This document shows positions 6,671-40,566 of a stretch of DNA of 48,174 nt, in pieces. The stretch is taken from the IMG/VR virus record IMGVR_UViG_2711768016_000013; one strand, 5' to 3'. The position numbers and the translations under genes were made by a program. Position 1 is the first letter of the stretch, and every line of letters begins with the position of its first letter. This DNA comes from a virus. Its lineage: Duplodnaviria; Heunggongvirae; Uroviricota; Caudoviricetes. The notes under the pieces were generated by a model. The model was not told the origin of the DNA, did not search any database, and saw only the letters and a list, made by a program, of their open reading frames with translations.

Positions 6671-7159
6671 ATGTTGGATGTATTTACTCCATTGTTGAAA
6701 CTTTTTGCTAACGAGCCACTCGAAATACTTATGTATACGATTATCATTTTTGGTCTCACTCTCTGGCTGATACCGAAAGAGTTTACTGTCGCATTCAATG
6801 CTTATACTGAAATACCTTGGCTCTTTCAGATTATCGTTTTTGCCTTTTCTTTCGTGGTCGCCATTTCCTTCTCAAGATTGCGAGCACATATTCAAAAGCA
6901 TTATTCATTACTACCAGAGCAACGAGTATTGCTTCGTTTATCTGAGAAAGAAATCGCTGTATTTAAAGATTTCCTTAAAACAGGAAATCTTATTATCACT
7001 TCTCCTTGCCGTAACCCGGTTATGAAAAAATTAGAACGGAAGGGCATCATTCAACATCAGAGTGATAGCGCAAACTGTTCTTATTATCTCGTCACCGAAA
7101 AATACTCCCATTTTATGAAGTTATTCTGGAACAGCAGGAGTAGACGTTTTAATCGTTAG
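6671..7159 (+). CDS. sieB: Superinfection exclusion protein B, membrane protein, 162 aa
   Basis: MLDVFTPLLKLFANEPLEILMYTIIIFGLTLWLIPKEF... with hydrophobic helices; ATG at 6671 within the longer ORF. Confidence 0.85.
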   Translation: MLDVFTPLLKLFANEPLEILMYTIIIFGLTLWLIPKEFTVAFNAYTEIPWLFQIIVFAFSFVVAISFSRLRAHIQKHYSLLPEQRVLLRLSEKEIAVFKDFLKTGNLIITSPCRNPVMKKLERKGIIQHQSDSANCSYYLVTEKYSHFMKLFWNSRSRRFNR

Positions 7160-7311
7160 CTTACTGTGTGCTTCTCCAACCATCGGCGCGCACCAGTTTC
7201 GGTTTTAAATGTTTTGCTTTTGGTATACGTCATGGCAGTGAACGTTCCATCCTGGTTGGGGAACACGCCGCACACCAGGGATTCGTTGTTGCCGAGGTCG
7301 ATTTTTTGCAT
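7156..7311 (-). CDS. ydaF: Small protein YdaF-like, 51 aa
   Basis: Hand translation MQKIDLGNNESLVCGVFPNQDGTFTAMTYTKSKTFKTETGARRWLEKHTVS; below cutoff. Confidence 0.65.
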   Translation of the reverse strand: MQKIDLGNNESLVCGVFPNQDGTFTAMTYTKSKTFKTETGARRWLEKHTVS

Positions 7312-7321
7312 TTTGCGAATC

Positions 7322-7456
7322 TCACATCTTGTTGCTGTGTATAGCGACTTCTGCCTGCCAGAGATCCCAGTCGTTGCTGCGTAAAGCCTGCACAGCCTGG
7401 TTGTAAGTGATACCGCAACAATCCATCAAATACTGAACTACTTCGTAATGCACCAT
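7322..7456 (-). CDS. ydaG: Small protein YdaG-like, 44 aa
   Basis: MVHYEVVQYLMDCCGITYNQAVQALRSNDWDLWQAEVAIHSNKM from ATG at 7456. Confidence 0.65.
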   Translation of the reverse strand: MVHYEVVQYLMDCCGITYNQAVQALRSNDWDLWQAEVAIHSNKM

Positions 7457-7626
7457 CTTATCTCTCCCCTTAACGCCGGGTGGCGGAACTGAAACCTGCT
7501 GCACTGCAAAATCTGAACCCTGCCGTCATGTTCATACGCCTCGGGCTGGCTACTTAACCCCTGACCACTGCCTGGTAACTCGAAGTATTGCCCTGCGTTC
7601 TGTGGGGCGGGGTGGGTTGGTAGGTA

Positions 7627-7670
7627 TATAATGTACTTTGTGTTCATTGATGTAAAGTACTATAAGTACA
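7627..7670. promoter_or_regulatory. Candidate leftward promoter/operator (OL-like) with GTAC-core inverted repeats downstream of the repressor gene
   Basis: GTACTTT (7633-7639) and AAAGTAC (7654-7660) form an inverted repeat; further AAGTAC copy at 7665-7669; TATAAT-like hexamers nearby. Confidence 0.35.
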
Positions 7671-7746
7671 TTTTGTGTGTAAAAAAATGAGATGGGATAA
7701 AGTGAAGCACAAACCCGGAGGGGGACGCTACCGGATTTATGCTGGT

Positions 7747-8184
7747 TTAAGAGGCTTTTTGTTTTTTCTTTCGTGCTAGCTCTTCGTAAATTGCATTGTA
7801 CTTCTGTTTTTTCTCCTCAAGAGTTTTTAAAAGTTCATCTGTCTCACTGTCAGGGAGCTCGTCCAGAAGGTCAATGATGATTTTTTGTCTTGGATTTAAC
7901 TCCTGATAGAAACGTACCTGTCCACTTTCTTCTGTATCCTCTCCCAAAAGATAGGTTGGTGTTGTTCCAATGAGTGTTGCTAATTCCCTTAATTTCTCTC
8001 GGCGAGGAATTGTTTCGCCATTAAACCATTTGCTAACCGCTTTTGGTGTTAATTTCATTCGACGGGCAATTTCTGCCTGCCTTCCATGTTGTTCATAACC
8101 AGCGTTTTCACAGGCTAGCGCAAGCCTACTGGCGAACTCTTTACGCGCTTTATCTTCATGAACCATAAGTTCAATGATATTCAC
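7747..8184 (-). CDS. racR: Prophage repressor, XRE-family HTH (RacR-like)
   Basis: HTH segment GRQAEIARRMKLTPKAVSKWFNG; divergent from ydaS/ydaT as in CI/Cro arrangements. Confidence 0.85.
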   Translation of the reverse strand: MNIIELMVHEDKARKEFASRLALACENAGYEQHGRQAEIARRMKLTPKAVSKWFNGETIPRREKLRELATLIGTTPTYLLGEDTEESGQVRFYQELNPRQKIIIDLLDELPDSETDELLKTLEEKKQKYNAIYEELARKKKQKAS

Positions 8185-8245
8185 TCTTGAATGTACTGTC
8201 AGTTCTGTTATAGCATGTACTCAAAGTTCACATTGTGAGGGTGAT
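8185..8245. promoter_or_regulatory. Divergent promoter/operator region between racR and ydaS (OR-like)
   Basis: 61-bp intergenic region with two direct ATGTACT copies (8191-8197, 8214-8220) sharing the GTAC core seen on the other side of racR. Confidence 0.4.
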
Positions 8246-8500
8246 ATGAACCAGAAAACACTTGAAGATGTAATCAAAACTGTTCGCGTTTCTGTTGTGG
8301 CCGACGTTTGTGGTGTCAGCCAAAGAGCAATCTACAAATGGATGGATAACGGAAAATTGCCTCGCACAGAATATACCGGCGAAACAAATTACGCTGAAAA
8401 AATCGCTCATGCATCAAACGGATTATTTTCTGCTGATGTAATTTTAACTATTGGCAGAAATAAAACTACTACGAAAAAGCTGATGGGAGTTGATTCATGA
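8246..8500 (+). CDS. ydaS: Cro-like small HTH protein (YdaS-like)
   Basis: ATG at 8246 preceded by GAGGG; VSQRAIYKWMDNG HTH-like segment; overlaps ydaT start. Confidence 0.7.
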   Translation: MNQKTLEDVIKTVRVSVVADVCGVSQRAIYKWMDNGKLPRTEYTGETNYAEKIAHASNGLFSADVILTIGRNKTTTKKLMGVDS

Positions 8501-8919
8501 AAATCAAGCATGAGCACATCGAGTCAGTGTTGTTAGCCCTGGCAGCCGAAAAAGGGCAGGCATGGGTAGCCAATGCCATTACTGAAGAATATCTGCGCCA
8601 GGGGGGCGGCGAATTGCCCCTGGTACCAGGCAAGGACTGGAATAATCAGCAGAATATCTATCACCGTTGGTTGAAAGGTGAAACGAAAACGCAAAGAGAA
8701 AAAATTCAGAAGCTGATCCCAGCAATTCTGGCAATCCTTCCGCGCGAGCTGCGTCACCGACTCTGCATCTTCGATACCCTGGAACGCCGTGCATTACTGG
8801 CGGCGCAGGAAGCGTTAAGTACGGCAATTGATGCGCATGATGATGCAGTCCAAGCCGTTTACCGGAAAGCGCATTTCAGCGGCGGCGGGTCTTCCGACGA
8901 TTCTGTCATTGTTCATTAA
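8497..8919 (+). CDS. ydaT: YdaT-like protein, 140 aa
   Basis: MKIKHEHIESVLLALAAEKGQAWV...; coupled to ydaS (ATGA overlap). Confidence 0.8.
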   Translation: MKIKHEHIESVLLALAAEKGQAWVANAITEEYLRQGGGELPLVPGKDWNNQQNIYHRWLKGETKTQREKIQKLIPAILAILPRELRHRLCIFDTLERRALLAAQEALSTAIDAHDDAVQAVYRKAHFSGGGSSDDSVIVH

Positions 8920-8931
8920 GCAAAAGTTTCC

Positions 8932-9789
8932 ATGCTGTTTGTGCTTATTCTAAGCCACCGGGCAGCATCATACGGGGCAATTATGGCCGCATTACCATAC
9001 ATGCAACTGTACATAGCTGATTACCTGGCTGACACCATGCATTTGTCAGCAGAGGAGCATGGTGCGTATTTGTTGCTGATGTTCAATTACTGGCAAACAG
9101 GAAAGCCAATACCTAAAAACAGGCTGGCAAAAATTGCCCGTCTGACTAACGAGCGATGGGCTGATGTTGAACCATCCTTGCAGGAGTTTTTTTGCGATAA
9201 CGGCGAGGAATGGGTGCATCTTCGGATTGAGGAAGATCTGGCATCAGTCAGGGAAAAATTAACCAAAAAATCAGCCGCAGGAAAAGCATCTGTTCAGGCC
9301 AGAAGAAGCAGAAAGGAAGCAGATGTTCAAACAAAACAAGAGAGAAATTTAACAGGTGTTCAAACAGATGTTGAAGTGGTGTTTGAACATGATGTCAACA
9401 CAAAGGCAACTAATAAAGATACAGATAAAGATCTAAAAACAGATCCCCCCCTAAATCCCCCCCGGGGGAATCGAGGTGTCAAAAAGTTTGACCCTCTGGA
9501 TATTGCTTTGCCGAACTGGATTTCTGTCTCGCTTTGGCGTGAGTGGGTTGAATTTCGCCAGGCATTGCGAAAACCGATTCGAACGGAGCAGGGCGCTAAC
9601 GGGGCGATACGGGAGCTGGAAAAATTCCGCCAGCAGGGTTTTTCACCTGAGCAGGTGATTCGACACAGCATCGCCAATGAATACCAGGGCTTGTTCGCGC
9701 CGAAAGGTGTTCGACCTGAGACGTTACTCCGACAGGTTAACACCGTCTCGTTACCGGATAGTGCGATCCCGCCAGGCTTCAGGGGGTAA
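8932..9789 (+). CDS. ydaU: Replication initiation protein (YdaU-like, lambda O analogue)
   Basis: 285-aa ORF immediately upstream of the DnaC-like gene; family assignment from memory. Confidence 0.75.
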   Translation: MLFVLILSHRAASYGAIMAALPYMQLYIADYLADTMHLSAEEHGAYLLLMFNYWQTGKPIPKNRLAKIARLTNERWADVEPSLQEFFCDNGEEWVHLRIEEDLASVREKLTKKSAAGKASVQARRSRKEADVQTKQERNLTGVQTDVEVVFEHDVNTKATNKDTDKDLKTDPPLNPPRGNRGVKKFDPLDIALPNWISVSLWREWVEFRQALRKPIRTEQGANGAIRELEKFRQQGFSPEQVIRHSIANEYQGLFAPKGVRPETLLRQVNTVSLPDSAIPPGFRG

Positions 9790-10564: not shown

Positions 10565-11326
10565 ATGGAGACTGTTTTTGACGCACTGAAAGCAATGGGA
10601 AAAGCCACATCCATAGAACTTGCTGCGCGACTTGATATCAGTCGTGAAGAAGTGCTGAACGAACTATGGGAACTGAAAAAAGCTGGTTTCGTTGATAAAA
10701 GCGCGTACACCTGGCGTGTGGCTGATAACAACGTTCAGCAGGAACAGCCAATGCAGGCAGAACTGCCGGAAGAAACCACCACGGCAACTGTAGTGAAAAT
10801 CTCAGAGTGCGATTTAACCGCGACGATTGAACAACGCGGACCACAAACGGCGGATGAACTGGCTACGCTGTTCGGTACAACATCCCGCAAAGTTGCTTCA
10901 ACGCTGGCAATGGCAATCAGCAAAGGACGCCTGATTCGCGTAAACCAGAACAGTAAATTTCGTTACTGCATGCCGGGCGATAATTTACCAGCAGAGCCGA
11001 AAGCTGCATCGGTAGCGGAAACTGATGGTAAAGCCTTTCCTCAGCCAGCCGGTGTTGCGTTACCAGTACAGGAAGCGGCAACACAGGAAGATATTAAAAC
11101 AGAAACTGTGGCGGACATTGTGCAGTCGCTGCCATCGTTTACTGAAACGCAAGCGGATGACCTAGTTTTACCATCGCTGCATATGGCAAACCGCGAACTG
11201 CGTCGGGCGAAAAATCATGTCCAGAAGTGGGAGCGAGTCTGCGCCGCGCTGCGGGAGCTGAACAAGCACCGGGATATTGTCCGACAGATTGTCGATTCCT
11301 CCAGTCGTATTGTGTCGGAAAAGTGA
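10565..11326 (+). CDS. ydaW: Hypothetical phage protein (YdaW-like, full length)
   Basis: ATG at 10565 preceded by GGGAGG; [24 protein letters not shown]... Confidence 0.65.
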
Positions 11327-11341
11327 TTGCCGGAGGCGCTT

Positions 11342-11758
11342 ATGGCAAAAGTTTTTACACAGGAAGAGCGTGAAAAAATTAAGGAGCAGGTTGTTGAGTT
11401 GGTACGCCAGAGTGGGCGCGAGACGTTAAGGCAACTGGAGGCCAAGACAGGTGCGACAAGATATCTGATGAGCATTCTTGCCAGAGAGTTGGTTGCCAGT
11501 GGCGATGTATACAACTCTGGCTATGGGTTATTCCCGTCTGAACAGGCTCGTAAGGATTGGAAAAACGCCCGCAAAAAACTATCCAGGGCAAAGGTGAAAA
11601 AAACGGTTGTGGTTGATCCTGACCTTATCTGGTCATTACCAGACGGAGAAATACGCCGCTATGACAGGCGTCAGAACATAATCTGTCGCGAGTGCCGGAA
11701 GAGTGAAGTTATGAAACGTGTACTGGCATTTTATCAAGGAAATCTTCGGTATTTATAG
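11342..11758 (+). CDS. Hypothetical phage protein
   Basis: ATG at 11342 with GGAGG 5 nt upstream; basic C-terminal half. Confidence 0.55.
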   Translation: MAKVFTQEEREKIKEQVVELVRQSGRETLRQLEAKTGATRYLMSILARELVASGDVYNSGYGLFPSEQARKDWKNARKKLSRAKVKKTVVVDPDLIWSLPDGEIRRYDRRQNIICRECRKSEVMKRVLAFYQGNLRYL

Positions 11759-11914
11759 ACGTTACTAGATCAAAGAGCATTAGTTCATATGTAAATTGAC
11801 ATTTTTCTGGCACAGGGGAGAGCTAGCGTGGTTGTCCGCTTTGTGCCAATAGCGGACATTGCTGGCTCATGGTATGTTAGTTTAAGGAGGCAGGTTATGC
11901 CCTGTATTTCGCTG

Positions 11915-11923
11915 TGGTATAAT
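11915..11923 (+). promoter_or_regulatory. Extended -10 promoter element (TGgTATAAT) upstream of the accessory operon
   Basis: TG at 11915-11916 and TATAAT at 11918-11923, about 34 nt upstream of the GTG at 11957. Confidence 0.4.
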
Positions 11924-11956
11924 AGTTGCGCAATTGATACAAGGGAGCGTTACATC

Positions 11957-12919
11957 GTGAAAATTGTTTTCGAGGTTAATGGAAAGAAAGTTCCACTAAA
12001 ATCTTTAAAATACATAAGCAAAAAAGATCAACTCGAAGTAATGAAAAACTGGTTCTTTGAAAACTTTGAAGATCCGGCAAATGCTTGTCCGTATGAAAGT
12101 AGAGAAGGTGGCTATGCTTACATATATGGCGGGCCGTATGATGCGAGCGAAGAACTACAATCCATCTTCGGTCAATATGTTAAATCTGAGTATATTGAGG
12201 AATTAGTAGATGAATTACAAACACAATGTTTTGACTGGTCTGGAAACTCAAATAATATAGATGATTGGTACGATGATGATATCTACGACGCTGTAACGTC
12301 TTCCGGTAATCCGTATTTAAAATTCATTGATAATATCGATAAAATAAAAAAACTTGCAAAAGATAAAACTGAACAACAGCAAAAAAACCACTTGCTTAGT
12401 TTGCTCTACACGAATGTTATTACAGCTTTGGAAACGCTTTATGTTGAGCTATTCATTAATTCTATAGAGAAAGATGATGTCTACATAGCCAATTGTATAG
12501 AAAAAGGTAAGACTGAATTTAAAGTAAGCAAAGATATTGCTGCGTTGCCTTTCAAGGGTGAACCCATCGAGAAAATTAGGGGAGAGCTAATCAGGTCAAT
12601 CAAGGAACACTTGATCAGTGCAAGCTGGCATAGCACTAAAAAGGTAATCGACCGCTATGAAGCTACATTCGATATAAAAGTACAAAAAGACTGTCCGATA
12701 GAAGCTATTGAATTGGCAACCCTCAATCGAAATCACTTAGTGCATCGTGGTGGAAAGGATAAAGAAGGGAACCTCGTAGTGATTACAGACCAGGATCTTG
12801 AAACGCTGATTGAAAATGCATCGAACCTGGCAATTATGCTCTACAACAGTTTAAATGTAGCAACGAATAAAACCACCATTTTGCAACCAGATGACAAACC
12901 GTTCATTCATGAATTTTAA
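11957..12919 (+). CDS. Uncharacterized protein with C-terminal Rx4H (HEPN-like) motif; first gene of AT-rich accessory operon
   Basis: Start uncertain (GTG 11957 with AGGGAG 9 nt upstream; longest ORF starts 11828); LNRNHLVHRGG at codons 299-309 follows predicted helices; low GC. Confidence 0.6.
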   Translation: MKIVFEVNGKKVPLKSLKYISKKDQLEVMKNWFFENFEDPANACPYESREGGYAYIYGGPYDASEELQSIFGQYVKSEYIEELVDELQTQCFDWSGNSNNIDDWYDDDIYDAVTSSGNPYLKFIDNIDKIKKLAKDKTEQQQKNHLLSLLYTNVITALETLYVELFINSIEKDDVYIANCIEKGKTEFKVSKDIAALPFKGEPIEKIRGELIRSIKEHLISASWHSTKKVIDRYEATFDIKVQKDCPIEAIELATLNRNHLVHRGGKDKEGNLVVITDQDLETLIENASNLAIMLYNSLNVATNKTTILQPDDKPFIHEF

Positions 12920-12934
12920 TAGCGCAGGTCATAC

Positions 12935-13936
12935 ATGGATATTCGCACACGAAAGACAAAATTTTTAGAGTCGTTAGATTCAACTGAAGTGATACGCAAA
13001 GCAGTAAGTCTCGCTATAGATTGCATTATTGATAATCATAATAGTAATGAAGATACCCCCTTAGTTATTACCAGCTATGATGATCTCTGTAGAATCCAGG
13101 TGCTAAATTATGTACAGGAGTTTTGCGAAGCTGCATTCCCTGATATGGATGAATATTACTTTAGTCCTAACATACTTCGCATCAACGGCAAGACTAGTGA
13201 AGAAGCTTGTATTAACTTAATTAAACTCTTAAGAAGTACAAAAGGCATGCTATTCTGGTCCGATGCCCCATCGTGGTTCGCTAGCCTCCCCGACGGATTA
13301 TTCCATGTTGTTAACATTGATCAAAAAATCGTTACTCGCGGCCTTAATAAGAAAAACTCTAAGCCGACAATAATCAATAAAGATTACAGTGTAGATACAC
13401 TACTATCAGAGCTATTTTTGAATGGCGCACACATGGAGCAACCCAACGTACACAACGTTTCTGAGGGAAACATGAAGTTCTATGATGAATGCCATGCTGG
13501 ATTAATCAGACCAATACCCGCTCCAATAGGCGCGTCATACGATGAAGAGATCACAATTAATTCTCCAGATTGGCAAAAGCTCGCGTGTGTAGCTTTACGC
13601 CGCTATCAGTCGAAGGAATGTCATGACGGAATGCAATGGGATACAACCGATCATGGTTGGACTGATGTAATCGCGTATCCATTCGTCGAAGAAATACAAT
13701 CAATGGATAATAGTGGTTATCGACAATGTTTAGTTGGGCTGGTCACAATAAACAATTCAAATGCAAATTCTCCGTACCTATCTACCGTTTGGATACATCC
13801 ATTTTATCGCAGGAGAGGGTTATTAAGTAAGTTATGGCCAAAATTACAAGAGTTATATGGAAGTAACTTCGAAATTGAGCGACCTAATGAAAATATGAAA
13901 GCATTTCTGAAAAGTGCGAAACACGCAGATTACTAA
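12935..13936 (+). CDS. Uncharacterized 333-aa protein with C-terminal GNAT-like motif; second gene of accessory operon
   Basis: ATG 15 nt after upstream stop; VWIHPFYRRRGLLSKLW resembles GNAT acetyl-CoA-binding motif A. Confidence 0.65.
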   Translation: MDIRTRKTKFLESLDSTEVIRKAVSLAIDCIIDNHNSNEDTPLVITSYDDLCRIQVLNYVQEFCEAAFPDMDEYYFSPNILRINGKTSEEACINLIKLLRSTKGMLFWSDAPSWFASLPDGLFHVVNIDQKIVTRGLNKKNSKPTIINKDYSVDTLLSELFLNGAHMEQPNVHNVSEGNMKFYDECHAGLIRPIPAPIGASYDEEITINSPDWQKLACVALRRYQSKECHDGMQWDTTDHGWTDVIAYPFVEEIQSMDNSGYRQCLVGLVTINNSNANSPYLSTVWIHPFYRRRGLLSKLWPKLQELYGSNFEIERPNENMKAFLKSAKHADY

Positions 13937-14113
13937 TTTATGAATCAGTCTGTGGAGTTAGGGTTGGTGTGAACAAGTAGGGTAAGAGCCTCAACGTGAT
14001 GCTATGCCGACCTGCTCCCTGAGAATTCACACAGAAGGCTGCTAGCAATGTCTGCAGATCGCTCAAAGCGGACTAAAATGTTGGCTTGTTTCTGACTTAG
14101 AGCATTTAAGGAA

Positions 14114-14338
14114 GTGCTGGTGGTGACTGGTTGTTGTGTTCCATTTCTACAGAATAAAATCACAGAAACTATACCCAATAGTTGTATTGAATCACTGACG
14201 AGACAGCCTCATATTTATCAGGACTGGTGTGCGTCTAATACAGGGGGTTGTCGTGCTGGTTCTCAAATGTGCGCTGGCTATTGCGGCTGTAATGGCAATT
14301 TATTGTCTTGCTGTTGTTCTTATGGAGCGGCTTTCTGA
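14114..14338 (+). CDS. Possible small Cys-rich peptide (9 Cys in the last 35 residues); weak call
   Basis: GTG-initiated ORF; C-terminus CRAGSQMCAGYCGCNGNLLSCCCSYGAAF; no convincing RBS. Confidence 0.2.
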   Translation: MLVVTGCCVPFLQNKITETIPNSCIESLTRQPHIYQDWCASNTGGCRAGSQMCAGYCGCNGNLLSCCCSYGAAF

Positions 14339-14496
14339 TTGATTACATACTGGCTAGAAAAAAGGTGTTACCTTGGTTTATCTTTGTCCGGCAAGGTGCG
14401 CTCATTAATCTTAAGTAAATTTATTGCTCAAGTATTCAGATTACTTCTTATGGTTGAAGTCTCCTGTCAATGTAGAACCAATATATTTACAAAAAT

Positions 14497-14535
14497 GAGA
14501 CCCGTCGGGGATAGCCCTGCCGGGTCTGACTGTTA
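14497..14535 (-). terminator. Hairpin plus T-run downstream of the minus-strand gene 14557..14895
   Basis: AGACCCG...CGGGTCT stem followed by CATTTTTG on the minus strand. Confidence 0.4.
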
Positions 14536-14556
14536 AAGCATTTTTAATATGATCAT

Positions 14557-14895
14557 CTATTTTTTGGTGCTATAGACTTTTTCGCCCGAAAAGTCTGGAG
14601 CGACCCAAAAGTTAATATTAAACTGAGCATCATCGCTTAGTTCAACACGGTGCCAGTATTGTGGTGGGCTTGTTGCAAAAGCGCCAGCATTAATGACTAC
14701 TTTTATCTCCGGTTCAGTAGCATTCTCATCAGTAAAACCATAATATGTTACAGTGCCTTCCATTACGCACAACTGCCCAAAAACACCTGCTGCTGTATTA
14801 TGATGTGTTAATAACGCTGAAGGTACGTTCTCTTTTGTGAAGAACGGAGTTGAGCGTTTGATTACCCAATCTTTAGGAATTCTCTTGTGTGTCAT
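14557..14895 (-). CDS. Hypothetical protein, possibly cupin-like (DUF1971-like); accessory gene on opposite strand
   Basis: ATG at 14895 with GGAGGAGG 7 nt upstream; MTHKRIPKDWVIKRSTPFFTKENVPSALL...; fold assignment tentative. Confidence 0.55.
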   Translation of the reverse strand: MTHKRIPKDWVIKRSTPFFTKENVPSALLTHHNTAAGVFGQLCVMEGTVTYYGFTDENATEPEIKVVINAGAFATSPPQYWHRVELSDDAQFNINFWVAPDFSGEKVYSTKK

Positions 14896-15708
14896 AACCA
14901 CCTCCTCCAAAACATGCATTAAAAATGCATCTTTTGGAGGGTTATGTCAAGCTGTTATGAAACACATAATTGATATGTTGATTAGAGGAGAAGATAGAAT
15001 AAATATGGTTGTTTTTCGTATAACTATTTGTTTTACTTTTAGTTTATGCATTCTGTGTGTTAGGAATAAGTTATTAAAGTTTAATCAAAAAATCTCGATG
15101 TAGTCCACATAGATTACTGTTACTGAACCTTATTGTGTGTATTAGTTGTGTTCTGAAATTTCAGCTTAATTATTTATGATGTATTTTTTAACGATAAATA
15201 TTTTCCCAGGATACCTTTACTGTGTATATAAATAAATTATATACGCATAAATAATGTAAAGGCGTCCTTTTAGATATATCTTATCAAATGTTAATGACTT
15301 GAGTGGGAAATATGATTCCAGCAACTTATCATGTGGCTACTTTATAAAAATAATGCCCATATAAAACAACAAGCGAAAAGGATTACGGATAAAAAAGGAG
15401 CGAGATGTGCGAACTTGTTATTTTCCATGTTTAACCACCTTAAATAATTGATGATGACGGGATGATTGCATCTGTAATGCTTTTATTGAAATGTTATGAT
15501 AAAAAAGAACTTTTGCATAACATTAAAATGTAATTTATCTAATCGTTTTTAATAATAAGTGTCGTATTTCTATCCTTGTACCAGCTATTTGATATGTAGT
15601 GTTTGTTCATGCTATGTGGGGCTTTACACCATAGCCAGTTTATTTATACTTTATTCGTCAGCCTGAACAACTGGCATCTGCTGCGCTGCGCCATCGAGAG
15701 ATTGAGAA

Positions 15709-16308
15709 ATGGCGCATATACAACTGGTCAAACAAACCTCTTCTGGTTTACTTCTCCCGGCGACGCCGGAGAGTTGCGATTTTCTGCATCAAATCAAAAT
15801 AGGTGAGTGGATACACGCAGACTTTAAGCGTGTGCGTAACTACGCATTCCACAAGCGTTTTTTCAAACTCCTGCAACTGGGATTCGATTACTGGACTCCG
15901 GTCGGTGGGGCGATCACGCCTCGCGAACGAGAACTGCTGTCTGGTTTCGTTGATTACCTGTGCGAATCAGTTGGTCGGGAACACACGCCAGCCCTGAGTG
16001 ATGCCGCAGAGCAATACCTTAACACCGTTGCGACTCGTAGAACCCGGGATACGGCGTTGCTAAAGTCGTTTGAGGCTTTCCGCGAGTGGGTAACCATTCA
16101 GGCCGGATTTTACACCGAGCATATTTATCCGGACGGTAGCCGTGGGCGTCGGGCAAAATCCATCGCTTTTGCGAATATGGACGAAGTCGAGTTTCAGCAG
16201 GTTTATAAATCTGTACTGAATGTGCTGTGGAACTGGATTCTGTTCCGTAAATTCTCCTCTCAGGAGGAAGTTGAAAATGTGGCCGCACAACTACTGGAGT
16301 TTGCGTAA
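15709..16308 (+). CDS. Lambdoid nin-region protein (DUF1367-like, tentative)
   Basis: 199-aa ORF in the position of nin genes upstream of Q. Confidence 0.65.
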   Translation: MAHIQLVKQTSSGLLLPATPESCDFLHQIKIGEWIHADFKRVRNYAFHKRFFKLLQLGFDYWTPVGGAITPRERELLSGFVDYLCESVGREHTPALSDAAEQYLNTVATRRTRDTALLKSFEAFREWVTIQAGFYTEHIYPDGSRGRRAKSIAFANMDEVEFQQVYKSVLNVLWNWILFRKFSSQEEVENVAAQLLEFA

Positions 16309-16598
16309 TGGTGAATTTACGTAAAGCGGCTAAAGGCCAGATGTGCCAGATCAGAATCCCTGGCTACTGCAATCACAATCCCGAAACCTCTGTGCTGGCG
16401 CATTACAGGCTGGCGGGGACGTGCGGAACAGCGACAAAACCACATGATATGCAGGCGGCGATAGCCTGTAGCTCATGCCACGATCTAATCGACGGGCGGG
16501 TAAAAACCAGCGATTACACCAAAGAAGAATTGCGCCTGATGCATGCTGAAGGGGTTTTTCGCACACAAGAAATCTGGAGAAAGAAAGGTCATTTATGA
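16308..16598 (+). CDS. Small Cys-rich nin-region protein (YbcO-like, putative nuclease)
   Basis: 96 aa with CQIRIPGYCNHNPE...CSSCHDL Cys cluster; start overlaps upstream stop. Confidence 0.65.
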   Translation: MVNLRKAAKGQMCQIRIPGYCNHNPETSVLAHYRLAGTCGTATKPHDMQAAIACSSCHDLIDGRVKTSDYTKEELRLMHAEGVFRTQEIWRKKGHL

Positions 16599-17137
16599 TT
16601 TACCCAACGAATACAGGAAAAAGCGGAGAACACCTTCGCCTCACCACGCTGGAAAGTGTCTGGATTCAGGGAAAACTACGTATGTGGGGGCGCTGGTCGT
16701 ATATTGGCGGTGGCAGGTCAGGGAATATGTTCAATCAGTTGTTGGCATCCAAAAAACTGACGAAAACAGCCATTAATGAAGCCCTGCGCAGAATGAAAAA
16801 AGCGGGAATAGAGAAAGCTGAGCTGGAAGCGTTTTTGCGAGAGATGATCAACGGCAAGCAAAAGAGCTGGCTGGCGCATTGTACTGATGCAGAGGCGTTA
16901 TGTATTGATCGAGTCATAAGTGAGGTGCTGGCAGAGCATCCAGGATTGATTTGCATTCTCCGGCAACGCTATGAAGGGCGGGGGATGACTAAGCGCAAAA
17001 TGGCTGAATTGCTAAATGATGCACACCCAGAGTGGTGTTTTAGCACATGCGAAAAACGGATTGCTAATTGGTTAGCTGTTGCTGAGTATGCCCTATATAT
17101 TCCCATGCGTGAATCATTTGCTGAGAAAATGGCTTGA
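16595..17137 (+). CDS. Putative late-gene antiterminator Q-like protein
   Basis: Position just upstream of terminator hairpins and the lysis cassette; N-terminal W-x-G-R-W pattern reminiscent of Q proteins; assignment from memory. Confidence 0.5.
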   Translation: MIYPTNTGKSGEHLRLTTLESVWIQGKLRMWGRWSYIGGGRSGNMFNQLLASKKLTKTAINEALRRMKKAGIEKAELEAFLREMINGKQKSWLAHCTDAEALCIDRVISEVLAEHPGLICILRQRYEGRGMTKRKMAELLNDAHPEWCFSTCEKRIANWLAVAEYALYIPMRESFAEKMA

Positions 17138-17220
17138 TTTCTTACGTATAAACTGCTTCAATTTTGCTATGCTTCGCAAAGCTGTATCGCGAGGCGGATT
17201 GCAGACATGGACATCGTAAA

Positions 17221-17244
17221 AAAACCGCTTAATGCGGTTTTTTT
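17221..17244. terminator. Rho-independent terminator hairpin with A-run/T-run flanks (possibly bidirectional)
   Basis: AAAACCGC-TTAAT-GCGGTTTT followed by TTT. Confidence 0.6.
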
Positions 17245-17564
17245 ACGTCAGGAAAGCAGGGGAGAATGCTGCTAGTTGGGCAACTGGTCTTTCTGCTCCA
17301 AATTATAACAGAGACCAGTTATAGTTTCGGTGCTGTGTTTTTTTTACAATATTGTGATAACACATTGCTGGCGGGAGTTTTGATATTTCTTGGCAGGGGC
17401 TGATGATGCGTTATCCTGATGTCGTCAACTCATATAAAATGAGATGAGAGATCATTGCAGGGTGGTTTGTAATTCGCTGTTTAGCGGGACAATATGTTGT
17501 CTGATACAAGACACCCGACGCCTCAGATTACTATAATAAAGACGAAGCATCCTTTGTATTGACC

Positions 17565-17590
17565 AACCGCCTGTTTAGGCGGTTCTTTTT
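17565..17590 (+). terminator. Rho-independent terminator, candidate tR'-like site for Q antitermination
   Basis: AACCGCC-TGTTTA-GGCGGTT followed by CTTTTT; TATAAT at 17533-17538 just upstream. Confidence 0.5.
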
Positions 17591-18181
17591 GGGCTGGTTT
17601 ATTGTATGCCAAATGATTATTAAAAAGGTTGTGTTAATAACAAGATCCGAAATAATATGCCTGCATATTTTTATCTTGCTTATATTCTGCATATTGTGCA
17701 TAGCAGGCTCATCCCTGCAATCAAAACTGTATGATGAGTATTTTTTGTTTTCCTTTTTTCCAGTCATCTGATGATGACCTGCTTCTTTTTAATCCGGATC
17801 GACATCAGTTTTTTAAGATAATTCCTGCGAGTTATATGCATAAATGCCACAAACTCCGCATTTTATGTGGTTGGGAGTTGCCGGGCGCGCAGTGAGTTTG
17901 CTAAGAAAACTCCTGCATGGTGAATCCCCCTGTGCGGTGGGGTGATACCATTAACCTTTTCTGTCGCCGACAGGTATCACGAACATTTTGTTCACCGGGA
18001 GGCACCCGGCACCATGCACTTCAATAGATTCTCTCCACATTATGGATATTCTTTCAGAATATCCCACGCAGACTTTGTGTAAATGTTAACAAATGTGCGT
18101 TTTATTTGATCTGATTCGCTGTTTGAGCGTCCAAAACAACGGTATATATAATCCTTTACTATATGACATATGTGAGGAAAA

Positions 18182-18610
18182 ATGGGTTTTCGTAGCGCAT
18201 CAATTCTTACGTTGATTATTAGTGGGATTATTATCGGGTGCACTGATGCTGTATCGACAAATTATCATGACCGTACATCATATTACTCCGATAAAGCAAT
18301 AGAGACACAGTATGTGAGTTCATCTGAACGTACTTCTGATGTTAGTGAGGATATCCGTCTGTATGCCCATCAAATCAAGAGCGCCATCGAAAAACAGTTC
18401 GGGGATGCGAGTAAGTATTCAGGAAAAGAGTGTACACTGAGAATGCATATGGCCCCGAATGGCCTTCTACTGGAGGTTAAAAGAGAAAGTGGAGACCTCG
18501 ATTTATGTCGTGAAGCGATGAATGCGATAAAGAATGCTGATATACCTGCCCCCCCTTCGCCGGAAGTATATAAAGTATTTCAAAATGGGGTGCTGGATTT
18601 TAAACCCTGA
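18182..18610 (+). CDS. Lipoprotein with TolA C-terminal (domain III)-like domain
   Basis: Signal peptide and Cys; C-terminus ...CTLRMHMAPNGLLLEVK...PEVYKVFQNGVLDFKP closely resembles the TolA C-terminus as remembered; RBS GAGGAAAA. Confidence 0.65.
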   Translation: MGFRSASILTLIISGIIIGCTDAVSTNYHDRTSYYSDKAIETQYVSSSERTSDVSEDIRLYAHQIKSAIEKQFGDASKYSGKECTLRMHMAPNGLLLEVKRESGDLDLCREAMNAIKNADIPAPPSPEVYKVFQNGVLDFKP

Positions 18611-18760
18611 TATTTATTGTTTTGTAATAAACGGTTTCGGCTTAGGTTTGTTCTGACACAGCTACGGCACTGAGCTAAATTTAGCGGATAGTCAGCTCTG
18701 AGCCAGTGGCGGACGTAACAACTACTATTGCTGAGATTTTAATGGATTGAGGAGCAAGAA

Positions 18761-38183: not shown

Positions 38184-38514
38184 TACGGAAGAATTTCACT
38201 GGTTACCAGAGGATGGAATGAAAACAGAAAATAAACCATCGATAAAAACTGTAAGATTTGGTGATGGTTATGAGCAACGAAGTCCAAATGGACTTAATCA
38301 TTCTCTGCGCGTTTTCACCTGTGATTTCAAAGTTGAGGCGAATGAACGTGATTCATTTGAAAAATTTTTAGCCCGGCATGAAGGCTATAAATCTTTTTTT
38401 TGGCGCCCGCCGGGTATTAACAGAAAAATCAGAGTGGTGTGTCGAACGTGGTCAGCGACAGAACATATCACCTATACCGATTTTTCGTGTCAGTTTGACG
38501 AAGTGGTGATCTGA
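38176..38514 (+). CDS. Minor tail protein M (lambda gpM-like)
   Basis: 112 aa immediately after tape measure gene. Confidence 0.82.
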
Positions 38515-39212
38515 TGCAGGACATACAACAGGAAACGCTGAATGAATGCATTCGTGCGGAGCAGTCGGCCAGCGTGGTGCTCTGGGAAATCGACCTGACC
38601 GAGGTAGGCGGGGATCGCTACTTTTTCTGCAATGAGCAGAACGAGAAAGGAGAGTCTGTCACCTGGCAGAGTCGGCAGTATCAGGCCTATCCCATTCAGG
38701 GGAGTGGATTTGAGATGAACGGCAAAGGTGCCAGTGCAAGGCCAACGCTGAAAGTCTCTAATCTGCACGGCATGGTCACCGGGATGGCGGAAGACCTGCA
38801 GAGTCTGGTCGGCGGAACGGTGGTCAGGCGTAAGGTTTACGCCCGTTTTCTGGATGCGGTGAACTTCGTCAACGGAAACAGTGACGCCGATCCGGAGCAG
38901 GAGGTGATCAGCCGCTGGCGTATTGAGCAGTGCAGCGAACTGAGCGCGGTCAGTGCCTCCTTTGTACTGTCCACGCCGACGGAAACGGACGGCGCTGTTT
39001 TTCCGGGGCGCATCATGCTTGCTAATACCTGCACCTGGACCTATCGCGGTGATGAGTGCGGTTATCACGGTCCGGCTGTCGCGGATGAATATGACCAGCC
39101 AACGTCCGATATCACGAAGGATAAATGCAGCAAATGCCTGAGCGGTTGTAAGTTCCGCAATAACGTCGGCAACTTTGGCGGCTTCCTTTCCATTAACAAA
39201 CTTTCGCAGTAA
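38514..39212 (+). CDS. Minor tail protein L (lambda gpL-like)
   Basis: 232 aa with C-terminal Cys cluster (CTWTYRGDECGY...CSKCLSGC). Confidence 0.85.
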   Translation: MQDIQQETLNECIRAEQSASVVLWEIDLTEVGGDRYFFCNEQNEKGESVTWQSRQYQAYPIQGSGFEMNGKGASARPTLKVSNLHGMVTGMAEDLQSLVGGTVVRRKVYARFLDAVNFVNGNSDADPEQEVISRWRIEQCSELSAVSASFVLSTPTETDGAVFPGRIMLANTCTWTYRGDECGYHGPAVADEYDQPTSDITKDKCSKCLSGCKFRNNVGNFGGFLSINKLSQ

Positions 39213-39217
39213 ATCCC

Positions 39218-39961
39218 ATGACACAGACAGAATCAGCGATTCTGGCGCACGCCCGGCGATGTGCGCCAGCGGAGTCGTGCGGCTTCGTGGTGAGAACACC
39301 GGAGGGGGAAAGATATTTTCCCTGCGTGAATATTTCCGGTGAGCCGGAGGAGTATTTCCGGATGGCTCCGGAGGACTGGCTGCAGGCAGAGATGCAGGGT
39401 GAGATTGTGGCGCTGGTCCACAGCCACCCCGGTGGTCTGCCCTGGCTGAGTGAGGCCGACCGGCGGCTGCAGGTGCAGAGTGATTTGTCGTGGTGGCTGG
39501 TCTGCCGCGGGGCGATTCACAAGTTCCGCTGTGTGCCGCATCTCACCGGGCGGCGCTTTGAGCACGGGGTGACGGACTGTTACACGCTGTTCCGGGACGC
39601 TTACCATCTGGCGGGAATTGAGATGCCAGATTTTCATCGTGAGGACGACTGGTGGCGTAATGGTCAGAATCTCTATCTGGATAATCTGGAGGCTACAGGG
39701 CTGTATCAGGTGCCGTTGTCAACGGCGCAGCCGGGCGATGTGCTGCTGTGCTGTTTTGGTTCATCGGTGCCGAATCATGCCGCCATTTACTGTGGTGACG
39801 GCGAGCTGCTGCACCATATTCCTGAACAACTGAGCAAACGAGAGAGGTATACCGACAAATGGCAGCGACGCACACACTCCCTCTGGCGTCACCGGGCATG
39901 GCACGCATCTGCCTTTACGGGGATTTGCAGCGATTTGGCCGCCGCATCGACCTTCGTGTGA
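39218..39961 (+). CDS. Tail assembly protein K (lambda gpK-like; JAMM/MPN plus NlpC/P60)
   Basis: HSHP JAMM-like motif and DCYTLFRDAY NlpC/P60-like Cys region. Confidence 0.85.
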   Translation: MTQTESAILAHARRCAPAESCGFVVRTPEGERYFPCVNISGEPEEYFRMAPEDWLQAEMQGEIVALVHSHPGGLPWLSEADRRLQVQSDLSWWLVCRGAIHKFRCVPHLTGRRFEHGVTDCYTLFRDAYHLAGIEMPDFHREDDWWRNGQNLYLDNLEATGLYQVPLSTAQPGDVLLCCFGSSVPNHAAIYCGDGELLHHIPEQLSKRERYTDKWQRRTHSLWRHRAWHASAFTGICSDLAAASTFV

Positions 39962-40506
39962 AAACGGGGGCCGAAGCCATCCGGGCACTGGCCACACAGC
40001 TCCCGGCATTTCGTCAGAAACTGAGCGACGGCTGGTATCAGGTGCGCATTGCCGGGCGTGATGCAGGCGAAAATGAATTATCTGCCCGTCTTAATGAACC
40101 GCTGGCAAATGGTGCCGTGATCCACATCGTTCCGCGTCTGGCGGGTGCCAAAAGTGGCGGTGTGTTTCAGGCGGTGCTGGGTGCGGCGCTGATTGCGGTG
40201 GCATGGTGGAACCCTGTGGGCTGGCTGGGGGCCGCGGCTGTATCGGGTATGTATGCAGCAGGGGCCAGTATGATCCTGGGTGGTGTGGCGCAGATGCTGG
40301 CACCGAAAGCCAGGACGCCCACGGCAGCCAGTACAGATAACGGCAAACAGAACACGTATTTCTCGTCACTGGATAACATGGTTGCCCAGGGTAATGTTCT
40401 GCCTGTTCTGTACGGGGAAATGCGCGTGGGGTCACGTGTGGTTTCTCAGGAGATCAGCACGGCAGACGAAGGGGATGGTGGTCAGGTTGTGGTGATTGGT
40501 CGCTGA
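39859..40506 (+). CDS. Tail assembly protein I (lambda gpI-like)
   Basis: MAATHTLPLASPGMARICLYGDLQRFGRRIDLRVK... matches lambda I N-terminus as remembered; overlaps K 3' end. Confidence 0.8.
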   Translation: MAATHTLPLASPGMARICLYGDLQRFGRRIDLRVKTGAEAIRALATQLPAFRQKLSDGWYQVRIAGRDAGENELSARLNEPLANGAVIHIVPRLAGAKSGGVFQAVLGAALIAVAWWNPVGWLGAAAVSGMYAAGASMILGGVAQMLAPKARTPTAASTDNGKQNTYFSSLDNMVAQGNVLPVLYGEMRVGSRVVSQEISTADEGDGGQVVVIGR

Positions 40507-40524
40507 TGCAAAATGTTTTATGAG

Positions 40525-40548
40525 AAACCGCCTGCGGGCGGTTTTGTC
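40525..40548 (+). terminator. Hairpin between I and J genes
   Basis: AAACCGCC-TGCG-GGCGGTTT followed by T-rich tract. Confidence 0.4.
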
Positions 40549-40566
40549 GTTTATGGAGCGTGAGGA

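What the first reader, a model, noticed from the sequence alone, without database searches (positions are those of the whole stretch)
11760..15700. AT-rich accessory island with its own promoter inside the prophage
About 4 kb of markedly lower GC than the phage backbone. It holds the two-gene operon, a possible Cys-rich small ORF, an opposite-strand gene with a strong RBS, and roughly 0.8 kb of very AT-rich non-coding DNA (14920-15700). This looks like a horizontally acquired moron or hotspot insertion between the replication and nin modules.
Basis: seen in the sequence. Interest (0 to 1): 0.65.

Follow-up and report, generated by a model that had tools for sequence, protein, structure and literature searches.

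The report
Known anti-phage operon in prophage hotspot
The AT-rich stretch is real, but it is a patchwork of separately exchanged modules in a Rac-like E. coli prophage, and its two-gene operon is DS-33, an anti-phage defence system already validated in 2026.

Summary
Window 11760-15700 has 37.7% GC against 47% for the window and about 50% in the flanking replication and nin-like modules, and it is the lowest-GC stretch of that size.

The "single island" reading is only partly right, because three modules assort independently:
- A 2.2-kb cassette (about 11819-14075) carrying a two-gene operon.
- A conserved element with a 29-aa hydrophobic ORF.
- A DUF1971 gene plus a 0.8-kb AT-rich divergent promoter region.

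The operon is DS-33 of the DefensePredictor paper (Science 2026). Protein A is the published sequence and B differs at one residue. Published plaque assays show 2-6 logs of protection against T7, T3, Bas67 and Bas26. Protection is abolished by deleting A or by A-R258A, and retained or increased by deleting B.

My models agree: A has a HEPN fold with an invariant Rx4H motif, and B has a C-terminal GNAT fold.

New here: the cassette sits in a lambdoid cargo hotspot bracketed by conserved inverted repeats. At least 32 alternative cargoes occupy that site, including DS-3, PD-T7-1, AbiH and an SMEK-domain gene (the DS-27 protein family). Recombination breakpoints map inside the repeats.

The core is already known, so interest is modest.

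The parts
11342..11758 (+). DUF977 gene, the last gene of the replication module. It is the conserved left flank of the hotspot.
   Evidence: Pfam PF06163 E 3.3e-31. PGAP annotation in the 100%-identical record. Homology to other prophages runs from here to about 11860.
11821..11866 (.). Left arm of the inverted repeat that brackets the cargo (core GTCCGCTTTGTGCCAATAGCGGAC at 11834-11857).
   Evidence: 46-nt arms, 72% complementary. Core motif found at 11834-11857 (+) and 14050-14073 (-), with 0.01 matches expected by chance. Arms are conserved around other cargoes.
11915..11923 (+). Candidate extended -10 promoter (TGgTATAAT) inside the cassette, 34 nt upstream of the GTG start. The AAGGGAG ribosome-binding site lies at 11942-11948.
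   Evidence: Read directly from the sequence. It lies within the published functional clone. It was missed by the scan, which requires 9 of 12 hexamer matches. This is an inference and was not tested.
11957..12919 (+). DS-33A: 320-aa protein with an N-terminal HEPN/RES-NTD1-like domain and a C-terminal RiboL-PSP-type HEPN domain. It is the effector of the defence system.
12935..13936 (+). DS-33B: 333-aa protein with an N-terminal alpha/beta domain and a C-terminal GNAT fold. It is dispensable for defence and appears to dampen it.
14041..14086 (.). Right arm of the inverted repeat (core on the - strand at 14050-14073).
   Evidence: Homology to prophages carrying other cargo resumes at 14025-14061.
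14187..14215 (+). Candidate promoter (TTGAAT, 17-nt spacer, CATATT) for the small ORF.
   Evidence: These are the only upstream blocks conserved between the two divergent versions of the element (alignment). Inference.
14253..14342 (+). Conserved 29-aa hydrophobic ORF (MLVLKCALAIAAVMAIYCLAVVLMERLSD).
   Evidence: Intact in 8 of 8 copies, including phages Tritos and HannyBb, with an AGGAG-type ribosome-binding site. Synonymous-type to amino-acid changes are 13:8 here, against 5:15 and 3:16 in the other two frames. Occasionally deposited as 'putative membrane protein'.
14498..14527 (.). GC-rich hairpin (AGACCCG...CGGGTCT) between the convergent units. On the - strand it is followed by a T run, so it is a likely terminator of the DUF1971 gene.
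   Evidence: Read directly from the sequence. The consensus scan did not list it.
14557..14895 (-). DUF1971 (TehB N-terminal-like) gene. Its function here is unknown.
   Evidence: Pfam PF09313 E 2.6e-26. PGAP WP_000149055.1. With the AT-rich region it occurs in 450 of 5426 genomes.
14892..14960 (-). Leader hairpin of the DUF1971 mRNA that pairs with the ribosome-binding site and the AUG.
   Evidence: Minimum free energy -30.2 kcal/mol, z-score -6.84, 0 of 200 shuffles as stable. A 17-nt inverted repeat, 94% complementary (I3).
14920..15708 (.). AT-rich (GC 0.305) non-coding region between the divergent DUF1971 and DUF1367 genes. The best promoter-like site lies at 15623-15650 (+).
   Evidence: No Rfam match. 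The last 370 nt or so are conserved at about 78% upstream of DUF1367 in many other prophages.
15709..16308 (+). DUF1367 gene, the first gene of the nin/Q-like module and the right backbone flank.
   Evidence: Pfam PF07105 E 6.4e-98. Annotation.

Best explanation
The region is accessory cargo at a recombination hotspot of lambdoid prophages. It lies between the last replication-module gene (DUF977) and the nin/Q-like genes of a Rac-like E. coli prophage.

Its core (about 11819-14075) is a self-expressed cassette encoding DS-33, an anti-phage defence system that has already been validated experimentally.

Shown:
- The A protein is the published DS-33A sequence (PGAP accession match in a 100%-identical record) and the B protein differs at one residue.
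- A has a HEPN fold with an invariant R258-x4-H263 motif.
- In the published assays A is necessary and sufficient for 2-6 logs of protection against T7, T3, Bas67 and Bas26, and R258 is required.
- B has a GNAT fold. Deleting it does not abolish protection and raised it against T7, T3 and Bas67 in one plating series.

Inferred:
- A is an auto-inhibited RNase. Infection switches it on, probably through its N-terminal HEPN/RES-NTD1-like domain, and it then cuts RNA so that the infected cell yields no phage.
- B restrains A, by binding or by acetylation, and so sets the activation threshold.
- The cassette is swapped between phages by recombination within two conserved inverted-repeat arms (11821-11866 and 14041-14086) that bracket many alternative cargoes.

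For: Identity with DS-33:
- PGAP accessions in the 100%-identical record.
- Table S6 and Table S8 of PMC13092281.

Published phenotypes:
- Wild type.
- Deletion of A, A-R258A and deletion of B.
- The clone carried its predicted native promoter region; its vector, pCV1, comes from Vassallo 2022, whose destination vector lacks an upstream promoter. The primers place the clone at about window 11763-14037.

Protein folds:
- A: R258, H263 and R264 are invariant across 74 homologues.
- A family: 52 of 74 members match PF18870 and 32 of 74 match PF18735.

A and B are separable:
- Distant A homologues occur without B.
- Distant B homologues occur alone, or next to an AbiD/F-type HEPN gene.

Hotspot:
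- Other cargoes occupy the same place.
- 32 cargo clusters were found among 79 viral contigs that hold both repeat cores. They include DS-3, PD-T7-1, AbiH and PDC-S15, -S33, -S39 and -S06.

Breakpoints:
- Same cargo in a different backbone: 1 difference across 11819-14075, against 84-91% identity outside.
- Same backbone with different cargo: 99.6-99.8% identity up to 11856 and again from 14025.

Spread and composition:
- The operon is at least 99% identical in 208 of the 209 genomes that carry it.
- Low GC and low third-position GC.
Against: - No RNase activity, RNA target, trigger or abortive-infection phenotype has been shown for DS-33, here or in the paper.
- The dampening by B rests on one plating series. 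Against Bas26 the wild type was about 1 log better than the B deletion.
- The published DS-33B carries L at the otherwise invariant P289. Its behaviour may therefore not represent the version in this window.
- For this exact sequence, the Pfam matches to HEPN_RES_NTD1 and to GNAT fall below the curated cut-offs, and there is no Pfam match to RiboL-PSP-HEPN.
- The inverted repeat is only marginally above shuffles within this single sequence (33 of 46 matches, against a maximum of 32 in 100 shuffles).
- Breakpoints inside short conserved blocks are also what ordinary homologous recombination would produce.
Confidence: 0.8

Rival explanations
1. DS-33 is a toxin-antitoxin pair of the enzymatic-antitoxin kind, like HEPN/MNT. 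The GNAT protein would keep the HEPN toxin inactive by acetylating it, and loss of B during infection would release the toxin.
For: HEPN toxins neutralised by a modifying enzyme are among the closest structural matches (5yep, 7ae2, 8xdj). B lowers defence against T7, T3 and Bas67 by 1-1.7 logs. A B homologue sits beside another HEPN family (Abi_2) in Marinomonas.
Against: The strain lacking B exists, grows and defends, so A is not lethal without B. A homologues are frequently solo. B is about 330 aa with an extra N-terminal domain and lies downstream of A, unlike typical antitoxins.
Confidence: 0.2
2. The whole 11760-15700 stretch is one island acquired in a single event.
For: Uniformly low GC across the stretch. 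Thirteen genomes carry it intact at 99.8-100% identity.
Against: The operon cassette (209 genomes), the 29-aa ORF element (over a thousand genomes at about 90% identity) and the DUF1971 module (450 genomes) have different distributions. The identity profile breaks at 11819 and 14075. A Rac prophage with a 99.6-99.8% identical backbone carries another cargo next to the same DUF1971 module.
Confidence: 0.03
3. The inverted-repeat arms have no role in cassette exchange. They would be small conserved hairpins or protein-binding sites of the phage backbone, for example transcript-processing or termination signals, and breakpoints fall there only because they are the best-conserved flanking sequence.
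For: Significance within this one sequence is marginal. The left core folds as a hairpin of -12.9 kcal/mol. No cargo was seen in both orientations. There are no target-site duplications and no recombinase gene in the cargo.
Against: The 15-nt core GTCCGCTTTGWGCSA is kept in inverted orientation around 32 different cargoes and in several unrelated outer flanks. The 3' half of the right core often loses pairing without compensation, so a structural hairpin is not what is conserved. Only one near-empty site was found in 5426 genomes.
Confidence: 0.4
4. The DUF1971 gene and its AT-rich upstream region are a stress or metabolic lysogenic-conversion gene that is unrelated to phage defence.
For: The DUF1971 domain is the N-terminal domain of TehB-family proteins (NCBIfam PRK12335, E 5e-13). 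There is no PADLOC match. The gene has its own orientation, a terminator-like hairpin and a strongly structured leader.
Against: No function has been tested. The gene sits in a region rich in defence cargo.
Confidence: 0.5

Closest known systems
DS-33 (working name 'GNAT'), DefensePredictor-discovered system, Science 2026 (PMC13092281)
   Same: Same A protein (WP_014639476.1). B is identical at 332 of 333 residues. Same gene order and 15-nt spacing, and the same upstream region as in the published clone.
   Different: B has P289 here, which is the family consensus; the published clone has L289. The paper gives plaque and mutant data in its tables only and does not discuss mechanism or genomic location. 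Here the cassette lies in a Rac-like rather than a Qin/DicB-like prophage.
PD-T4-2 (Vassallo et al. 2022), component B, a RiboL-PSP-HEPN protein
   Same: It is the best remote match of DS-33A in the authors' HHblits search (probability 96.1, 55% coverage). It is a HEPN effector of the AbiD/F-related branch.
   Different: No PADLOC match to any PD-T4-2 model at E up to 1. DS-33A has an extra N-terminal HEPN/RES-NTD1-like domain. I could not check the partner protein of PD-T4-2.
HEPN/MNT toxin-antitoxin systems (for example SO_3166/SO_3165)
   Same: A HEPN fold with the Rx4-6H motif, paired with a small-molecule transferase that restrains it.
   Different: The partner is a GNAT fold, not a nucleotidyltransferase. 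The HEPN protein is not lethal without its partner. The gene order is reversed, and both proteins are about twice the size.
Defence hotspots of P2-like prophages and P4-like satellites (Rousset et al. 2022; Vassallo et al. 2022)
   Same: A fixed position in a temperate phage, between conserved genes, holding one of many alternative short defence cassettes of low GC.
   Different: A different phage group (lambdoid) and a different position, downstream of DUF977 and upstream of hokD or DUF1971. The site is bracketed by a conserved inverted repeat. I did not find it described in the papers I could search. Brenes and Laub 2025 could not be read.

Membership tests
DS-33 defence system | Protein A identical or near-identical to WP_014639476.1 | tested here: met
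   The 100%-identical record annotates the gene as WP_014639476.1. The translation also matches, by eye, the sequence printed in Table S8.
DS-33 defence system | Protein B near-identical to WP_000354965.1, downstream in the same operon | tested here: met
   332 of 333 residues are identical (P289 here, L in the published clone). The 15-nt gap is the same as in 6922-7884 / 7900-8901.
DS-33 defence system | Protection against phage when expressed | not testable with these tools
   Published for the near-identical clone: -log EOP of T7 2.6-3.0, T3 2.4-3.5, Bas67 2.0-2.3, Bas26 4.7-5.9.
HEPN superfamily | Rx4-6H motif | tested here: met
   R258-N-H-L-V-H263, with both R258 and H263 invariant in 74 homologues.
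HEPN superfamily | Four-helix up-down HEPN fold | tested here: met
HEPN superfamily | RNase activity | not testable with these tools
   The published R258A mutant loses defence. No biochemistry is available.
Pfam PF18735 HEPN_RiboL-PSP | Score above the gathering threshold | tested here: inconclusive
   No match for this sequence at E up to 0.01. 32 of 74 homologues match at E up to 0.001, best 7e-11.
Pfam PF18870 HEPN_RES_NTD1 | Score above the gathering threshold | tested here: inconclusive
   22.2 bits against a cut-off of 27.4 for this sequence. 52 of 74 homologues match at E up to 0.001.
GNAT acetyltransferases | GNAT fold | tested here: met
GNAT acetyltransferases | Acetyl-CoA binding motif R/Q-x-x-G-x-G/A and Pfam membership | tested here: inconclusive
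   The motif here reads R292-R-R-G295-L-L297, with L in place of G/A at the last position. R292 is invariant. Acetyltransf_1 scores 19.9 bits against a cut-off of 20.7, and 13 of 54 homologues match.
Toxin-antitoxin system (type II or VII) | The toxin is deleterious when the antitoxin gene is removed | not testable with these tools
   Not tested here; the published evidence points against it. A strain lacking B was built, plated and defended better than wild type against T7, T3 and Bas67.
Moron (self-contained transcription unit in a prophage) | Own promoter | tested here: inconclusive
   The consensus scan finds none. An extended -10 candidate lies at 11915-11923. The published clone of about 11763-14037 carried its predicted native promoter region, in pCV1, a vector from Vassallo 2022, whose destination vector lacks an upstream promoter.
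Moron (self-contained transcription unit in a prophage) | Own terminator | tested here: not met
   No terminator-like site lies between 13937 and 14040. The nearest strong hairpin is at 14498-14527, outside the cassette.
Transposable element with terminal inverted repeats | Terminal inverted repeats | tested here: met
   46-nt arms, 72% complementary, at the limits of the exchanged unit.
Transposable element with terminal inverted repeats | Target-site duplication and a transposase | tested here: not met
   No direct repeat flanks the arms. The cargoes encode no recognisable transposase.
Type I toxin (for the 29-aa ORF) | Small hydrophobic peptide under purifying selection | tested here: met
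Type I toxin (for the 29-aa ORF) | Cognate antisense RNA and toxicity on over-expression | not tested
   No Rfam match. No family match in Pfam or NCBIfam.

The most novel reading that the evidence does not exclude
The DS-33 cassette is one of dozens of alternative defence cargoes held between two conserved inverted copies of a 15-46-nt motif (core GTCCGCTTTGWGCSA) downstream of the DUF977 gene in lambdoid phages. On this reading the arms are a dedicated cassette-exchange site: short homology that phage recombinases such as RecET or Red, or an unknown site-specific enzyme, use to swap immune genes between co-resident phages. That would explain why at least three separately published systems (DS-3, DS-33, PD-T7-1), an SMEK-domain gene of the DS-27 protein family and, from primer evidence only, DS-37 all sit at one address.
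Probability: 0.35. Interest if true: 0.6.

Novelty: already known. Interest (0 to 1): 0.35.

Why it matters
The operon itself adds nothing new, because it is a published and validated defence system.

Three things are worth keeping:
- The supplementary mutant data, read together with the fold models and the gene-neighbourhood survey, point to a HEPN effector that works alone and a GNAT partner that restrains it. That gives a testable route to how HEPN defence nucleases are kept quiet.
- The cassette's address is a rich hotspot in lambdoid prophages, bracketed by inverted repeats. I did not find it described in the papers I could search. It holds several validated systems and many untested cargoes, so it could serve as a discovery anchor in the way the P2 and P4 hotspots have.
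- The 29-aa conserved membrane-type ORF next to hok/sok is absent from RefSeq (PGAP) annotation and is a candidate small toxin or membrane protein.

Tried and rejected
- PADLOC, NCBIfam and PHROGs gave no functional name for A or B. The only hits were weak chance-level PADLOC matches and PHROG families of unknown function.
- An Rfam scan of 11000-18500 found nothing in the island. The only strong match was STnc100, outside it.
- The consensus promoter and terminator scan was no better than shuffles.
- The longer starts for gene A (11828 GTG and 11897 ATG, the latter with a strong AAGGAGG site) were set aside because homologues are 310-320 aa long and PGAP uses 11957. I did not exclude 11897 experimentally.
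Only short two-copy chance matches turned up.
- A truly empty hotspot was not found. The best case, E. coli A20, still has about 230 nt between the arms.
- I tested whether the arm cores are conserved as hairpins. The right core often loses pairing with no compensating change, so I rejected the structural reading.
- I tested for cassette inversion. No cargo occurs in both orientations.
- The 29-aa peptide was too short for the homologue search. It has no family match and no paper in the library holds the sequence.
- Brenes and Laub 2025 (Cell Host Microbe) could not be read, so prior description of the hotspot there is not excluded.

Full report
**Context**

The window is a Rac-like prophage of E. 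coli. It is 100% identical over the queried stretch (11700-15750) to strain JP538 and several others. In those records the element lies next to ttcA and carries intR, xisR, ralR, recET, kilR, sieB, ydaS/T/U/V-type replication genes, DUF1627 and DUF977. After the region in question come DUF1367, DUF1364, DUF1133, lysis genes and trkG.

**Check of the observation**

- GC of 11760-15700 is 0.377. The window as a whole is 0.470, the replication module 0.498 and the nin/Q-like module 0.491.
- Among all sliding windows of the same length, only 0.4% are as low, and the minimum starts at 11711.
- Third-codon-position GC is 0.35-0.36 in the three genes of the region, against 0.47-0.61 in six neighbouring genes.
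- The two-gene operon, the opposite-strand gene with its GGAGGAGG ribosome-binding site, and the AT-rich (0.305) non-coding stretch 14920-15708 are all present.
- Rfam finds nothing in the region.
- The consensus promoter and terminator scan is no better than shuffles.

Two details do not hold: the 'Cys-rich ORF', and the idea that the stretch is a single unit. Both are treated below.

**The operon is DS-33**

PGAP names the two products WP_014639476.1 and WP_000354966.1. Table S6 of the DefensePredictor paper (PMC13092281, Science 2026) lists WP_014639476.1 plus WP_000354965.1 as working system 'GNAT' = DS-33, with defensive = TRUE.

The sequences printed in Table S8 match my translation of A, and match B except for P289 here against L there.

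[quoted passage not shown] The vector, pCV1, comes from Vassallo 2022, whose destination vector lacks an upstream promoter. The DS-33 primers place the insert at about window 11763-14037. A promoter must therefore lie in 11763-11956.

My candidate is an extended -10, TGgTATAAT, at 11915-11923. It fits the AAGGGAG ribosome-binding site and the GTG start at 11957. Homologue lengths of 310-320 aa support that start.

**Published phenotypes**

The values below are -log10 efficiency of plating in MG1655 (Table S7). The first screen gave similar wild-type values; the mutant series is.

| Construct | T7 | T3 | Bas67 | Bas26 | T5 |
|---|---|---|---|---|---|
| Wild type | 2.6 | 2.4 | 2.0 | 5.9 | 0.08 |
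| A deleted | about 0 | about 0 | about 0 | about 0 | about 0 |
| A-R258A | 0-0.5 | 0-0.5 | 0-0.5 | 0-0.5 | 0-0.5 |
| B deleted | 4.3 | 3.3 | 3.3 | 4.9 | 0.55 |

The main text of the paper does not discuss DS-33.

**My own analysis of the proteins**

Protein A:
- 122 homologue clusters were found.
- Of the 74 aligned, 52 match Pfam HEPN_RES_NTD1 and 32 match HEPN_RiboL-PSP.
- R258, H263 and R264 are invariant, and W224, H225 and E159 as well.
- The RiboL-PSP branch is described as a distant relative of AbiD/AbiF.

Protein B:
- 66 clusters were found; every cluster that carries an organism name is from Gammaproteobacteria.
- W286, H288, P289 and R292 are invariant, within a partly canonical acetyl-CoA motif.

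Gene neighbourhoods:
- The A+B pair is conserved in Aeromonas on a relaxase-bearing element, next to a SIR2 gene.
- Distant A homologues stand alone or with unrelated small genes.
- Distant B homologues stand alone, or beside a divergent Abi_2 HEPN gene with its own RNRVAH motif.

**Mechanism**

Shown:
- A is the effector, and its HEPN arginine is required.
- B is not needed.

Inferred, at about 60%:
- A is an auto-inhibited RNase that is switched on by infection, probably through its N-terminal domain, and it stops phage production by cutting RNA.

Inferred, at about 45%:
- B restrains A by binding or by acetylation. The supports are the higher protection without B, the association of B with a second HEPN family, and the precedent of HEPN toxins neutralised by a modifying enzyme.

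A classical toxin-antitoxin reading is weakened because the strain lacking B is viable and defends.

**The region is a patchwork**

- The operon occurs in 209 of 5426 complete E. coli genomes, and it is at least 99% identical in 208 of them.
- No sequenced phage in the collection holds it.
- In most carriers (ATCC 11775, UTI89, IHE3034 and others) it lies in a different, DicB/Qin-like prophage and is followed by hokD rather than DUF1971.
- The DUF1971 plus AT-rich module occurs in 450 genomes.
- The two together occur in only 13 genomes.

**The hotspot and its arms**

Other prophages carry different genes between DUF977 and the same downstream element:
- a RelA/SpoT-domain protein;
- an SMEK protein plus a methyltransferase;
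- an FRG-domain protein;
- QueH;
- an Sll1717-type ATPase;
- three hypothetical proteins, in a Rac prophage whose backbone is 99.6-99.8% identical to this one.

The cargo is bracketed by an inverted repeat with arms at 11821-11866 and 14041-14086 (46 nt, 72% complementary). The same arms flank the FRG and RelA/SpoT cargoes. The core motif occurs at both arms of the window, against 0.01 matches expected by chance.

Two comparisons locate the crossovers:
- Against ATCC 11775 (same cargo, different backbone) there is one difference across 11819-14075, while the flanks are 84-91% identical.
- Against LD39-1 (same backbone, different cargo) identity runs up to 11856 and resumes at 14025.

The crossovers therefore fall inside the arms.

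Of these, 79 also have the inverted right core. Their cargoes form 32 clusters of 0.4-6.7 kb, mostly of low GC. Matches among the cargoes include:
- PD-T7-1;
- AbiH;
- the candidate families PDC-S15 (FRG), PDC-S33 (RelA/SpoT), PDC-S39 and PDC-S06;
- a HAD plus NUDIX pair;
- a 340-aa PIN protein whose C-terminus equals that of DS-3.

The DS-3 cloning primers are themselves the left core and the hok leader.

Caveats on the arms:
- Within this single sequence the repeat barely exceeds shuffles (33 matches against a maximum of 32).
- No cargo is seen in both orientations.
- There is no target-site duplication and no recombinase gene in the cargo.
- The right core is conserved as sequence rather than as a hairpin.
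- Only one near-empty site was found, with the arms about 230 nt apart, in strain A20.

I found no description of this hotspot in the papers I could search. One relevant paper could not be read.

**The 'Cys-rich ORF'**

The ORF lies in a 0.3-kb element (about 14047-14357) that is present at about 90% identity in over a thousand E. coli genomes and in phages Tritos, Evi and mEp460, where it is unannotated.

The conserved reading frame is a different one: a 29-aa hydrophobic ORF at 14253-14342. It is intact in 8 of 8 copies and has an AGGAG-type ribosome-binding site. Its synonymous-type to amino-acid change count is 13:8, against 3:16 in the Cys-rich frame.

A candidate promoter (TTGAAT, 17-nt spacer, CATATT; 14187-14215) is the only upstream block shared by the two divergent versions of the element.

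The peptide has no family match. It is deposited only sporadically, as 'putative membrane protein'.

**DUF1971 module**

The gene (14557-14895, - strand) is followed by a terminator-like hairpin at 14498-14527. Its leader folds into a -30.2 kcal/mol hairpin (z-score -6.8) that buries the ribosome-binding site and the AUG, which suggests translational control. Its function here is unknown.

The AT-rich stretch is the divergent intergenic region between this gene and DUF1367. Its best promoter-like site is at 15623-15650.

**Verdict**

- The 'hotspot insertion' reading is right in kind but wrong about the unit and its boundaries.
- The central operon is already known and validated.
- The arm-bracketed lambdoid hotspot, the apparent restraining role of the GNAT protein, and the 29-aa ORF are the parts that may be new. 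All three rest on inference and need the experiments listed under next steps.

Noticed in passing
window 14253-14342 (+): A conserved 29-aa hydrophobic ORF (MLVLKCALAIAAVMAIYCLAVVLMERLSD) with its own ribosome-binding site and a candidate promoter. It lies directly upstream of hok/sok in Qin/DicB-like prophages. PGAP does not annotate it. It is a candidate small membrane protein or type I-like toxin.
   Followed up: partly
window 11821-11866 and 14041-14086; also L002, L008, L010, L013, L139 and 79 IMG/VR loci: Conserved inverted-repeat arms bracket at least 32 alternative cargo cassettes in lambdoid phages. Recombination breakpoints map inside the arms.
   Followed up: partly
Table S11 primers of PMC13092281 compared with window 11834-11857, L009, L014 and the hok leader: At least three separately published defence systems (DS-3, DS-33, PD-T7-1) sit at this one hotspot. 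An SMEK-domain gene (the DS-27 protein family, a different accession) occupies it in L009, and the DS-27 forward primer resembles the left-arm region. DS-37 is placed there from primer sequence only. The source papers do not mention a shared location.
   Followed up: partly
window 14892-14960 (-): The DUF1971 mRNA leader folds into a very stable hairpin (-30.2 kcal/mol, z-score -6.8) that sequesters the ribosome-binding site and the start codon. This suggests translational control.
   Followed up: partly
window 18691-18714 (+): A third, weaker copy (2 mismatches) of the arm core motif lies between the two TolA-like genes. It may mark a second cargo site, or it may be chance.
   Followed up: no
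window 17885-18071 (+): Rfam match to the sRNA family STnc100 (86.6 bits, E 4e-18), downstream of the Q-like gene.
   Followed up: no
DS-33B residue 289 (window 13799-13801): The published DS-33B clone has leucine at a proline that is invariant in 54 homologues. The window has the proline. The published behaviour of B may therefore come from an impaired allele.
   Followed up: partly
L014 2760-3040 (E. coli A20): The only near-empty version of the hotspot among 5426 genomes. About 230 nt lie between the arms, and they include sequence that matches the DS-37 cloning primer, so this is probably a deletion remnant.
   Followed up: partly
records NZ_CP084096, NZ_CP073936, NZ_CP182331, NZ_CP012631: IS2, ISSen4 and IS1 insertions interrupt the island or the operon in several genomes that otherwise carry it at 99-100% identity.
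   Followed up: no
window 38501-43000 and 47501-48000: A GC-rich block (0.56-0.61) near the right part of the window, and an extremely AT-rich end (GC 0.19). Both are further compositional mosaics that I did not examine.
   Followed up: no
L005-L007 (Aeromonas), positions about 8212-9293: The Aeromonas copy of the A+B pair sits on a relaxase-bearing element beside a SIR2 plus cREC_REC gene pair, which is a likely second defence system.
   Followed up: no
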